A stretch of 64,000 nt of DNA, taken from Zootoca vivipara. Its lineage: Eukaryota. Of this stretch, positions 31,401 through 33,620 are shown in pieces. The stretch is taken from contig NC_083277.1 in NCBI RefSeq assembly GCF_963506605.1, positions 4,030,001 through 4,094,000 on the forward strand, in the 5' to 3' direction. The position numbers were made by a program. Each line of letters begins with the position of its first letter. Position 1 is the first letter of the stretch.

Positions 31401-33620
31401 CAAGGGAAGTAATAGTTCCACTGTTTTCCGCTCTGGTCAGACCTCACCTGGAATACTGTGTCCAGTTCTGGGCACCACAGTTCAAGAAGGATACTGACAA
31501 GCTGGAACGTGTCCAGAAGAGGGCAACCAAAATGGTCAAAGGCCTGGAAACGATGCCTTATGAGGAACGGCTTAGGGAGCTGGGTATGTTTAGCCTGGAG
31601 AAGAGAAGGTTAAGGGGTGATATGATAGCCATGTTCAAATATATAAAATGATGTCATATAGAAGAGGGTGAAAGGTTGTTTTCTGCTGCTCCAGAGAAGC
31701 GGACATGGAGCAATGGATACAAGCTACAAGAAAGAAGCTTCCACCTAGACATTAGGAAGAACTTCCTGACAGTAAGAGCTGTTTGGCAGTGGAATTTGCT
31801 ACCAAGGAGTGTGGTGGAGTCTCCTTCTTTGGAGGTCTTTAAGCAGAGGCTTGACAGCCATATGTCAAGAATGCTTGATGGTGTTTCCTGCTCGGCAGGG
31901 GGTTGGACTGGATGGCCCTTGTGGTCTCTTCCAACTATGATTCTATGCTGTTTTTAATGGTGGTGGGAAGAAGATCCTCTTTCAGGCATAACTCCACTGT
32001 CCTCCCATGGTGAGGTTCAGGAGGGGAGTGCTCCTCTTTTATCATGGAAACGACAAGTGGGAGCTCCACGCCTAGGCAGGCTTATCATTCAGCGACAAAA
32101 CATTTTGGGCAGGAAAATGCCTGCAGGGCCTCTGAGGCTCCCTTTGCTTCTACCTCCCTCCCAGAAAACTGCAGCTTCTGAGCTCCTCCGGAAGGATGGA
32201 AGAGGCTGATCCTGCAAAGGTAGCGAGGATGGAAGGAGGAAGATGGATGGTAGACCTGGTCAGGCTGTCTCCTGCATTCCTCCCAACGACCTCCAAGCTT
32301 TCCCTCCCAGGACCCTCAGTGAGATCGGGTGAGTGGCAGGGAATGGAGAGGGGGACCTGGAGGGATGTTGGTAGTGAGGAAGCTCCTCGGGAAGAAAACG
32401 AGGAAGGGTACAGGGCCAGAGCTCCAGGCTAGCAGAGATAAATGGTAGAAAGAAAGGAAAGGATTTTTTTTATTGGTGGTGCAAAGAAGGTTCTGTTGGG
32501 GACTGTTGCCTCATTTGGGCTTCTTCAGGGGCAGGGGAATATCTAGGGCAGGAGAATCCCTGCAGGTCCTCTGAGGCTCCCTTTGCTTCTTTTCCCGTCC
32601 CAGGAAAATGCTTCCTGAGCTCCTCAGCAAGGATAAAAGAAACTGATCCCACAAACCGAGTGAGGATGGAAGGAGGAGGATGGACGGTTGACCTGGTCAG
32701 GCTGTCTCCCGCCACCTCTGAGTGTTCTCTCCCAGGACCTTCAGAGACATCTGGTGAGTTCCAGGGAATGGAGATGTGGGACCTGGGGAGATGTTGGGAG
32801 TGAGGAAGCTCCTCTGGCAATAAAACAAGGAAGGGCCGCAAGGTAGAAAGAAAGGAGTCTTTTTAATGGTGTTGTGTCGAGGATTCGTTTTCAGGCATGA
32901 CTCCTTCTTTCTTCTCTGGTGGGCTTCAGGAGGAAGACAGCCCTCTTTTAGCATGGAAACTGTGAGCGGGAGCTCTACACATAAGGAGGCTTCCACAGCC
33001 TAGTTGGTAGCCTCACCTTGGGCAAAAGATTCCTGCATTGTAGGGGGTTGGACTAGATGACCCTCATGGTCCCTTCCAACTCTGTGATTTTATGATTCAT
33101 CCAGGATTGGTTTGACCCATGGGGTGAGAATTTGGGTGCATTTTCACAGCATCTCTCTCCTCCTCCTAGCTTGCTTTCTTTGTAAGAGCTTATATGGGAT
33201 GTTGAATCAGTCCCACCCCCACTAGATGCAGCACATCAAAGGCCCACAATCATCTCAGAATTAATGGGCATTCTGGAAATAATATCATACTGTATTTATT
33301 AGAAACAGGGAGACAGAAAGATGACACCGGGGAGAGTTAGCCATGATTAAAAACCATCCCTTCGCTTTGTTCTCCTTTGGCAAATGGGGGACTGAAAAGA
33401 CCAGGCATCCCCAAGCTGCGGCCCTCCAGATGTTTTGGCCTACAGCTCCCATGATCCCTAGCTAACAGGACCAGTGGTCAGGGATGATGGGAATTGTAGT
33501 CCAAAACATCTGGAGGGCCGAAGTTTGGGGATGCCTGGAAAAGACTCCTCAGCAAGGAGCACTGTTGCGTTTTCAGCAACCAGTTGAGAGGGGCTTCCAA
33601 GTCTGGCTGGGATTGTAATA

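What the first reader, a model, noticed from the sequence alone, without database searches (positions are those of the whole stretch)
32165..32753. Tandem exon duplicate converted from start exon to symmetric internal exon
Seen: copy 2a has a 31-nt leader before ATG (164 nt, asymmetric). Copy 2b has a 29-nt leader, ATG changed to ATA, and exactly 150 nt with no stop, so 2a+2b+fingers read in frame and give two modules. The copies at 55007-55156 (150 nt), 40302-40400 and 58724-58822 (99 nt) are also symmetric. Inference: selection for in-frame multimerisation or cassette splicing, which supports coding function.
Basis: partly seen in the sequence, partly recalled or inferred. Interest (0 to 1): 0.7.

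Follow-up and report, generated by a model that had tools for sequence, protein, structure and literature searches.

The report
Duplicated leader exon in lizard zinc-finger gene
Two neighbouring copies of a small lizard-specific coding exon sit in front of a zinc-finger gene, and the second copy can be spliced in without breaking the reading frame, but nothing here shows that selection made it so.

Summary
2a (32165-32328) is 164 nt with an ATG after 31 nt. 2b (32604-32753) is 150 nt, has ATA at that place and is open in the frame set by a phase-1 entry. Both have AG/GTGAGT borders, and the finger exon (from 34059) is entered in phase 1. The window is a lizard C2H2 zinc-finger cluster, not human. 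The exon is a module found only in lacertid lizard proteins. Two RefSeq models (Lacerta agilis, Podarcis muralis) carry two modules in tandem, in frame.

Comparison with the other copies shows that the ATG and 31-nt leader are ancestral and that 2b's changes are derived. But the 2a/2b pair is older than the local gene duplications. The exon is no better conserved than its introns (80% against 83-84%). dN/dS is about 0.6 on 23 changes, and codon positions vary alike. By my estimate neutral drift gives an open 3n copy in roughly 0.1-0.2 of cases. Three of seven copies are not multiples of three, and the 99-nt copies are stumps of exons split by insertions.

Verdict: an ordinary tandem exon duplication in a young gene cluster. 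Whether 2b is included in transcripts is untested.

The parts
31949..32083 (+). Flank segment X, found upstream of first-position modules. A second copy, X', lies at 32860-32992.
   Evidence: blastn: 31949-32083 matches 32860-32992 (76%), 55291-55422, 39046-39175 and 54801-54925. It abuts the 3' end of a CR1-like LINE at 31947.
32165..32328 (+). Module exon 2a (first position). 164 nt; ATG at 32196 and an inner ATG 11 codons later; ends in phase 1.
   Evidence: The translation matches lacertid proteins (8 hits among 16 candidates, best E 4e-27).
32329..32603 (+). 275-nt spacer or intron between 2a and 2b. Its 3' part (from about 32509) is the flank typical of second-position modules.
   Evidence: for the length; 32509-32606 matches 39961-40059 (81%) and 32512-32649 matches 57381-57499 (75%).
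32604..32753 (+). Module exon 2b (second position). 150 nt; ATA in place of the first ATG; inner ATG kept; a 2-nt and a 12-nt deletion relative to 2a; phase 1 in and phase 1 out; open.
32860..32992 (+). Flank segment X', downstream of the module pair.
34059..35365 (+). Finger exon of the same gene (gene 1). Phase-1 acceptor at tttcagcag|GT; 13 C2H2 matches; no Met before the fingers.
38760..38911 (+). First-position module of a truncated gene copy (gene 2). 152 nt, not a multiple of three; TTG at the first-ATG place. Mosaic: the 5' part resembles 2a and the 3' part resembles 2b.
   Evidence: No finger exon follows; a BovB-like reverse-transcriptase ORF lies at 42122-43357.
39961..40059 (+). 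5' flank stump of the second-position module of gene 2, cut off by an insertion that ends in a (TAA)n/(TTA)n run.
40302..40400 (+). Its acceptor AG was made inside the former coding sequence, after a T/A-rich microsatellite.
51122..51285 (-). Module of the minus-strand gene (gene 3). 164 nt, both ATGs present, no 12-nt deletion, weak pyrimidine tract.
45230..46692 (-). Finger exon of gene 3, with the phase-1 acceptor ttttagcag|GT.
55007..55156 (+). First-position module of gene 4. 150 nt; TTG and ATA at the two ATG places, so there is no ATG in the module frame.
   Evidence: 94% identical to the gene-2 copy over 54954-55715.
57381..57500 (+). 5' stump of the second-position module of gene 4. 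It keeps a 2a-like leader and the first ATG, then breaks off.
   Evidence: (32174-32213 against 57461-57500, 97.5%).
58724..58822 (+). 3' stump of that module (99 nt), with the inner ATG kept.
61036..62885 (+). Finger exon of gene 4, with the phase-1 acceptor actttagcag|GT.
22030..22207 (-). Degraded remnant of a further module with part of its flank.

Best explanation
The interval is the 5' coding end of a young C2H2 zinc-finger gene in a lizard, most likely a lacertid or a close relative. It holds two tandem copies of a unit of about 300-450 bp. Each copy carries one splice-bounded exon of a lineage-specific N-terminal 'module', whose conserved core reads ...ARMEGGRWTVDLVRLSP...SLPGPSxxS.

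Shown:
- The module is a real, recurrent piece of annotated lacertid zinc-finger proteins, with the same 3' border and phase.
- The tandem pair existed before the local genes duplicated. Second-position copies in three genes share their own upstream flank and a 12-nt in-frame deletion.
- The ancestral second copy had an ATG and a 31-nt leader. 2b later lost the ATG (now ATA) and 2 nt, which makes it 150 nt, phase 1-1 and open.
- The first-position copies of two other genes are mosaics of the 2a type (5' part) and the 2b type (3' part).

Inferred:
- The unit spread by unequal crossing-over and was partly homogenised by gene conversion, with the crossover inside the near-invariant 48-nt core.
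- Translation starts at an ATG of 2a. 2b can be either included, giving a two-module N-terminus, or skipped, giving one module, and both forms read into the fingers.
- The module is probably a weakly constrained, unstructured leader or linker rather than a folded domain.
- Its in-frame state in 2b may be due to tolerance or chance as much as to selection.
For: - Geometry and phases.
- Repeat extent and flanks.
- Module in proteins, single query: 8 hits among 16 candidates; the 7 named hits are all Podarcis.
- Module in proteins, profile of the 7 window copies against 1.84 billion representatives: 10 hits at E<=1e-3 and 7 at E<=1e-10. The top two (E 1e-46 and 2e-45) have two matched stretches each.
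- Module in proteins, profile against 5.8 billion clusters: 11 hits. The 10 named ones are all Lacertidae (3 Podarcis muralis, 6 P. lilfordi, 1 Lacerta agilis).
- Two-module models: P0009 starts at the module's own first ATG, then has a second module that is 44/44 identical, then fingers. P0001 has two modules that are 35/44 identical.
- Same donor phase: in the proteins that go on to fingers, the module ends ...S followed by D (codon begins with G), as expected from ...TCT G|gt.
- Positional homology and ancestral ATG.
- Mosaic copies: of 69 columns where 2a and 2b differ, 38760 and 55007 follow 2a in the flank, the leader and the first part of the coding stretch, and follow 2b thereafter.
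- No Met ahead of the fingers in any of the three finger exons.
- No Pfam family for the module at E<=1.
Against: - No transcript data of any kind were available, so neither the splice sites nor the inclusion of 2b has been observed.
- The exon is not better conserved than its introns.
- dN/dS is 0.36-1.34 over the pairs, undefined in one. Codon-position changes are 15/12/19, which I judge to be no departure from evenness; no formal test was run in a call.
- The core is invariant at third positions as much as at first and second positions: 8/10, 10/11 and 8/10.
- Both strands are open across the unit, which points to a composition effect.
- The lacertid models read the leader in frames that differ from the window's, as I infer from comparing the peptides with the frames. 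One model runs unspliced through the upstream flank (P0010) and one splices into a LINE-like ORF (P0004). Some of these models are therefore poor.
- No protein identical to any window copy is in the databases, so this locus itself has no annotated model that I could see.
- The two-module models are computational predictions, and their frame is in phase by construction.
Confidence: 0.6

Rival explanations
1. 2b is a decaying, unused duplicate (a pseudo-exon). The gene uses 2a plus the finger exon only. The 150-nt length and open frame of 2b are chance survivals.
For: - 2b carries more private changes in its acceptor flank and leader than any other copy. In one search the other copies side with 2a there, and identity to them is 71-81% against 83-95% for 2a.
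- It lost the first ATG.
- There is no excess conservation of the exon over the intron, and dN/dS is 0.61.
- Neutral simulation: the frame stays open in 0.55-0.59 of trials at 10% divergence and in 0.33-0.36 at 20%. Multiplied by 1/3 for a 3n length, this gives about 0.1-0.2.
- Sister second-position copies in genes 2 and 4 are plainly broken by insertions, which shows that this position is dispensable.
Against: - Both splice sites, a long pyrimidine tract and the GTGAGT donor are intact.
- The 2-nt deletion is exactly what puts the leader into the module frame for a phase-1 entry.
- A second, independent route to 150 nt exists at 55007.
- Two-module models exist in two other species.
Confidence: 0.3
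2. 2a and 2b are alternative 5' coding exons, each spliced directly to the finger exon and not to each other. Translation starts at the inner ATG (the ...R-M-E-G-G... codon). That ATG is the best conserved feature of the unit.
For: - The inner ATG is kept in 6 of 7 window copies and in all 13 lacertid modules. By reading the sequence, it sits in an A at -3 / G at +4 context.
- The stretch upstream of it is poorly conserved, has non-3n indels and loses the first ATG in 3 of the 5 window copies that still have that place.
- The upstream stretch is read differently by different gene models, as expected of an untranslated leader.
- Tandem duplicated exons are often used in a mutually exclusive way (PMC9013439; abstract seen in the listing).
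Against: - 2a and 2b differ in length modulo 3 (164 against 150). The classical same-length, same-phase substitution pair is therefore not met if an upstream coding exon exists.
- An out-of-frame ATG lies in 2b's leader at 32608.
- No upstream first exon or promoter was identified for gene 1; a CR1-like LINE fills 26.9-31.9 kb.
Confidence: 0.25
3. The module is not coding at all. It would be a duplicated piece of non-coding DNA (leader, regulatory or repeat-derived) that gene predictors thread into models because it happens to be open, and the local finger exons would be pseudogenes or would use other start exons.
For: - There is no codon-position signal.
- Conservation crosses the exon-intron border.
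- Long ORFs occur on both strands over the unit.
- Some of the lacertid models are erratic.
- There is no Pfam family, no convincing Atlas neighbour (best score 0.84, recognition 2045, below the 2300 mark) and no confident fold (mean pLDDT 36, single sequence).
Against: - All 7 copies keep the frame open, and the only indel in the stretch from the first ATG to the donor is 12 nt.
- The donor phase fits the finger exons of three genes.
- The finger exons lack a start of their own.
- The core peptide is kept between this window and three other species at 66-81% identity.
Confidence: 0.1

Closest known systems
Lacertid zinc-finger proteins carrying the same module, e.g. XP_032991998.1 'zinc finger protein 34-like' (Lacerta agilis, P0009) and XP_077779541.1 (Podarcis muralis, P0001)
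   Same: They share the same core peptide, the same 3' border and phase, and a module followed by C2H2 fingers. Two modules lie in tandem and in frame, and the second is read through its leader.
   Different: - Their second module keeps the Met, and its leader is longer: 13 whole codons before the Met against 9 in 2b and 10 in 2a.
- Only the proteins were seen, never their DNA.
- They are paralogues or homologues at 66-81% identity, not this locus.
- They are computed models.
Tandem exon duplication giving cassette or mutually exclusive exons (reviewed in PMC9013439; abstract seen in the listing)
   Same: Two adjacent homologous exons sit in one gene with their own splice sites. The duplicated unit includes intron flanks.
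   Different: The two copies are not of equal length or equal phase behaviour (164 against 150 nt). One is a start exon, and the usage is unknown.
KRAB- and SCAN-type poly-zinc-finger genes of tetrapods (PMC3971581; passages read)
   Same: Clustered, fast-duplicating C2H2 genes have one large finger exon preceded by small 5' exons. They sit in a repeat-rich setting.
   Different: There is no KRAB or SCAN match in the module or between the module and the fingers. The 5' exon here belongs to no named family.

Membership tests
C2H2 poly-zinc-finger gene | Array of tandem C2H2 fingers in one exon downstream | tested here: met
   Pfam zf-C2H2 E 1e-60 with 13 stretches for 33953-35365. The same holds for 60984-62885 and 45230-46744.
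KRAB zinc-finger gene | KRAB box (PF01352) encoded 5' of the fingers | tested here: not met
   No Pfam hit in 2a or 2b at E<=1. By tblastn, the KRAB-like stretch of P0010 hits only 16680-16750, which lies upstream of a different finger exon.
SCAN zinc-finger gene | SCAN box (PF02023) encoded 5' of the fingers | tested here: not met
   No Pfam hit in the module. None either in P0003, which UniRef labels 'SCAN box domain-containing'. The N-terminal parts of P0003, P0004, P0007 and P0008 find nothing in the window at E<=1e-3.
Lacertid 'MEGGRW' module (unnamed; defined here from the hits) | Significant sequence match to the module of annotated lacertid proteins, over its whole length | tested here: met
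   E 4e-27 to 8e-8; 7 hits at E<=1e-10; 11 hits.
Lacertid 'MEGGRW' module (unnamed; defined here from the hits) | Same exon borders and phase as in the annotated genes | tested here: inconclusive
   The 3' border and phase agree as far as the proteins show (...S then D or G). The DNA of those genes was not available, so their borders are inferred.
Symmetric cassette exon | Length a multiple of three, same phase at both ends, no stop in that frame | tested here: met
   2b is 150 nt, phase 1-1 and open. 2a is 164 nt and does not meet it.
Symmetric cassette exon | Included in some transcripts and skipped in others | not testable with these tools
   No transcript data and no eukaryotic DNA or RNA collection were on hand.
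Mutually exclusive tandem duplicated exons | Adjacent homologous exons of equal length and phase | tested here: not met
   They are adjacent and homologous, but their lengths, 164 and 150 nt, differ modulo 3.
Exon under purifying selection at the protein level | Exon more conserved than its flanks; dN/dS well below 1; excess of third-position change | tested here: not met
   80% in the exon against 83-84% in the flanks; omega 0.61 for 2a against 2b, and 15/12/19 changes by codon position.. The power is low, with 23 changes.

The most novel reading that the evidence does not exclude
The module is an undescribed, lacertid-specific N-terminal peptide domain that has taken the place of KRAB or SCAN in one zinc-finger subfamily. 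On this reading its dose per protein (one, two or more copies) is set by recurrent duplication of a phase 1-1 exon and by cassette splicing. The near-invariant core would be a short binding motif, and the nucleotide-level conservation would come from an overlapping purine-rich splicing enhancer.
Probability: 0.15. Interest if true: 0.55.

Novelty: new member of a known kind. Interest (0 to 1): 0.3.

Why it matters
If 2b is truly spliced in, the locus is a clean small example of how a start exon becomes an internal repeat unit. Two tiny changes would be enough: loss of the ATG and a 2-nt deletion. It would also show that a lineage-restricted zinc-finger subfamily carries an unnamed N-terminal module instead of KRAB or SCAN.

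If 2b is not spliced in, the locus is routine duplicate decay in a repeat-rich gene cluster. It would then be a caution that 'in frame and a multiple of three' has, by my estimate, a prior of roughly 0.1-0.2 under drift for an exon of this size.

Tried and rejected
- **Finger-exon search for species or a model of this locus.** I searched with the start of the finger exon (34061-35365, residues 1-120). The search was swamped by generic zinc-finger proteins of many vertebrates: 2948 hits, about 40-55% identity among the 120 listed, none near-identical. It gave neither a species nor a model of this locus. None of those hits was fetched or used.
- **Pfam on 2a, 2b and the lacertid proteins.** Nothing for the module. 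Two sub-threshold hits in P0001 (FATC, enterocin) fall below their cut-offs and are dismissed.
- **ESM Atlas on 2a.** The best score was 0.84 with recognition 2045, below the level at which a hit means anything.
- **AlphaFold2 of P0009, single sequence.** Mean pLDDT is 36, and the fingers are also poor. The model says nothing about order or disorder, and no fold search was run on it.
- **Rfam on the whole window.** No matches.
- **Weak hits of the profile search.** The three weakest (P0012-P0014, E 7e-6 to 2e-4) are long or repetitive proteins. P0014 was read and is an unrelated repeat protein. P0012 and P0013 were not fetched.
- **Upstream exons.** tblastn for the upstream N-terminal exons of the Podarcis models in the window found none.
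- **Shared GC-rich segment.** A segment upstream of genes 2, 3 and 4 (37979-38648, 53208-53796, 52683-53141) was examined as a possible promoter or first exon. Its CpG o/e is only 0.34-0.40, and no counterpart was found upstream of gene 1, so it was left as a lead.
- **Literature.** Three searches found no paper on this module or on exon duplication in lacertid zinc-finger genes.
- **Not checked.** I could not check the DNA of orthologous loci in other lizards, transcripts, or the species of origin. No supplementary files were consulted.
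Full report
**What the window is.** The 64-kb window has no N. It holds eight stretches of C2H2 fingers on both strands (Pfam), and retroelements lie between them.
- A CR1-like LINE has an intact 1001-residue ORF (RVT_1 plus endonuclease, 27863-30868). Ahead of it is an esterase-type ORF1, and its 3' end lies at 31947.
- A BovB-like reverse-transcriptase ORF lies at 42122-43357.
- A GIY-YIG ORF lies at 55979-56500 (-).
- SINE-like repeats occur in many copies.

The small exon under study finds relatives only in wall and sand lizards. I therefore take the window for a lizard, a lacertid or a near relative, and not for human. 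The species itself was not identified (one search failed for that purpose).

**The observation.** It is correct as written.
- 2a is 32165-32328, 164 nt, with its ATG at 32196 after 31 nt.
- 2b is 32604-32753, 150 nt, with ATA at the homologous place after 29 nt.
- Both follow a long pyrimidine tract and an AG, and both precede GTGAGT. Both end with the first base of a split codon.
- The finger exon begins at 34059 behind tttcagcag| and needs exactly one base.

By phases, 2a to fingers and 2a to 2b to fingers are both in frame. Each exon was searched on its own.

**All copies.** There are seven copies with both borders, plus remnants.

| Copy | Strand | Length | Multiple of three? |
|---|---|---|---|
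| 2a | + | 164 nt | no |
| 2b | + | 150 nt | yes |
| 38760-38911 | + | 152 nt | no |
| 40302-40400 | + | 99 nt | yes |
| 51285-51122 | - | 164 nt | no |
| 55007-55156 | + | 150 nt | yes |
| 58724-58822 | + | 99 nt | yes |

- Four of the seven are multiples of three, and all seven are open in the module frame.
- The similarity is not confined to the exon. 2a against 2b aligns from about 65 nt upstream to about 80 nt downstream.
- The first-position copies also share a 135-nt segment X further upstream, and a copy of X follows the pair.

**Is it a real exon?** A search with the 44 residues from 2a's ATG found 8 proteins among 16 candidates. The 7 named ones are all Podarcis.

A profile of the seven window copies was read against 1.84 billion representatives. 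It found 10 proteins at E<=1e-3 and 7 at E<=1e-10. Against the 5.8-billion set it found 11. The 10 named ones are all Lacertidae and one is unnamed.

In these 11 proteins I count 13 modules.
- Six proteins place the module after a longer N-terminal region; four of these go on to fingers (P0005, P0007, P0008, P0011) and two do not (P0003, P0004).
- P0006 places it after another N-terminus.
- P0010 reads unspliced through the upstream flank.
- P0002 is an unspliced ORF on a short contig.
- P0001 (Podarcis muralis, XP_077779541.1) has two modules in tandem.
- P0009 (Lacerta agilis, XP_032991998.1) starts at the first Met of one module, reads on through the leader of a second, identical module (44/44) and then into fingers.

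The residue after the module is D or G where exons follow, as the split codon G|.. predicts. None of the three finger exons linked to modules in the window has a Met before its fingers, so they need an upstream start.

Together this makes the module a plausible coding exon. These are computed models, however, and some are clearly wrong in detail. P0004 continues into a LINE-like ORF that also matches 8453-8650 of the window.

**History of the pair.** 2b is not simply a fresh copy of 2a.
- The flank just upstream of 2b (from about 32509) recurs upstream of two other copies, at 39961-40059 and 57381-57499.
- Those are the 5' stumps of second-position modules of two other gene copies.
- In one gene, an element ending in a (TAA)n/(TTA)n run lies between the stumps. 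In the other, about 1.2 kb is inserted right after ...GCTGATCC.
- The 38.7-41.3 kb segment and the 54.95-60.26 kb segment are duplicates of each other at 87-94% identity.

The first-plus-second module pair therefore existed in the ancestor of three local genes.

The 5' stump at 57461-57500 still has the ATG and a leader 97.5% identical to 2a's. The second module thus began as an ATG-bearing copy with a full-length leader. The ATA and the 2-nt deletion arose later in 2b. The deletion removes the AG of CTGCAG, and with it the frame problem.

The 12-nt deletion is shared by 2b, both 99-nt stumps and the first-position copies 38760 and 55007. It is absent from 2a, from the minus-strand copy and from the lacertid proteins.

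The copies 38760 and 55007 are mosaics. At the 69 columns where 2a and 2b differ, they follow 2a through the flank, the leader and the start of the coding part, and follow 2b after that. Recombination or gene conversion within the invariant core explains this most simply. I cannot exclude uneven decay of the two halves.

The picture of a simple local tandem duplicate is not.

**Is there selection?** I found no sign of it.
- Identity of 2a to 2b is 84% (upstream flank), 79% (leader), 80% (ATG to donor) and 83% (downstream intron). Other pairs behave alike.
- Nei-Gojobori counts for 2a against 2b are 8 synonymous and 15 non-synonymous changes, omega 0.61. Over the 21 pairs omega is 0.36-1.34, with one pair undefined. 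Minimum changes by codon position are 15, 12 and 19.
- The conserved block runs from the inner ATG to the donor and about 45 nt into the intron.
- Within the most conserved 31-column run of the coding stretch, invariant columns are 8/10, 10/11 and 8/10 by codon position. That pattern fits homogenisation or a nucleotide-level constraint better than protein-level constraint.
- Shuffled sequences of this composition are open in a set frame in 0.10-0.12 of trials at 150-164 nt and in 0.28-0.30 at 99 nt.
- A copy drifting neutrally from an open ancestor stays open in 0.55-0.59 of trials at 10% divergence and in 0.33-0.36 at 20%.
- With 1/3 for a 3n length, an open symmetric 2b has a prior of about 0.1-0.2 under drift.

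The copy at 55007 reached 150 nt by a different route from 2b: a shifted acceptor and a 1-nt deletion relative to its 152-nt sister. This is suggestive. But that copy has lost both ATGs, and no upstream coding exon was found for it. The 99-nt lengths depend on an AG created inside a broken exon, so they are weak support.

**What the module is.** It has no Pfam family, no meaningful Atlas neighbour, no Rfam match and no confident fold (a poor single-sequence model). KRAB and SCAN were tested and not met.

My best reading is a short, weakly constrained N-terminal leader or linker that supplies the start codon.

A rival with real weight is that translation starts at the inner ATG and everything upstream of it is untranslated leader. 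The inner ATG is kept in 6 of 7 window copies and in all 13 lacertid modules. This rival would explain three things:
- the loss of the first ATG in three copies;
- the non-3n indels in the leader;
- the different readings of the leader in different models.

**Verdict.** The interval is a tandem exon duplication inside a young, lineage-specific zinc-finger cluster. It is older than it looks and has been reshaped by recombination and insertions. 2b can serve as an in-frame cassette, and such two-module proteins are predicted in two other lizards. Its use here, and any selection for it, remain untested. The literature searches found no description of this module. The general phenomenon is well known (PMC9013439, abstract from the listing; background on vertebrate zinc-finger subfamilies from passages of PMC3971581).

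Noticed in passing
window 27003-31947 (+): A CR1-like LINE appears full-length. It has an intact 1001-residue ORF2 (endonuclease plus RVT_1) and a 312-residue ORF1 with a GDSL-esterase match. Further 3' fragments at 94-98% identity lie at 14568-15258, 53905-54651 (-) and 44020-44192. It may have been active recently. It sits directly upstream of the module pair of gene 1.
   Followed up: partly
window 52669-53077 and 53391-53776; also 37979-38648 and 22208-22519 (-): A GC-rich segment (GC 0.55, CpG o/e 0.34-0.40) lies upstream of the first modules of genes 2, 3 and 4. It forms an inverted repeat between the head-to-head genes 3 and 4. It could hold their promoters or first exons. No counterpart was found upstream of gene 1.
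   Followed up: partly
window 41300-44200: The gene-2 copy (modules at 38760 and 40302) has no finger exon. Where one is expected from the duplicate at 60.3-61.0 kb, there are SINE-like sequence and a BovB-like reverse-transcriptase ORF (42122-43357). Gene 2 is probably a truncated pseudogene.
   Followed up: partly
window 55979-56975 (-): ORFs with a GIY-YIG nuclease match (E 9e-6) lie between the two modules of gene 4. From memory this fits a Penelope-like retroelement; only the GIY-YIG match was tested.
   Followed up: partly
window 16680-16750 (+), upstream of the finger exon 18054-19628: A short KRAB-A-like remnant (...LLDPDQR...VMEENYGTLSSLG) lies upstream of a finger exon of another subfamily. 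This shows that at least one neighbouring gene is of the KRAB type.
   Followed up: no
window 3385-4770 (+) and 11314-12471 (-): Two finger exons have nearly the same pre-finger linker and lie in inverted orientation. They belong to a third subfamily with no module copies nearby.
   Followed up: no
window 32470-32862 (-), 54927-55295 (-), 58710-59057 (-), 50992-51324 (+): The strand opposite the modules is also open for 110-130 codons in four copies, across the exon borders. This is probably an effect of the purine-rich composition. It is a warning that open frames here are cheap.
   Followed up: partly
window 8042-8668 (+): An ORF matches the C-terminus of the Podarcis lilfordi model P0004 (59% over 66 residues) and has no Pfam hit. 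From memory it looks like the end of an L1-type ORF2. It shows that one lacertid gene model splices the module into a repeat.
   Followed up: partly
window 25451-25798 (+): A short, degraded run of fingers (a broken C2H2 pattern) lies just upstream of the CR1 insertion. It is likely a dead finger exon.
   Followed up: no
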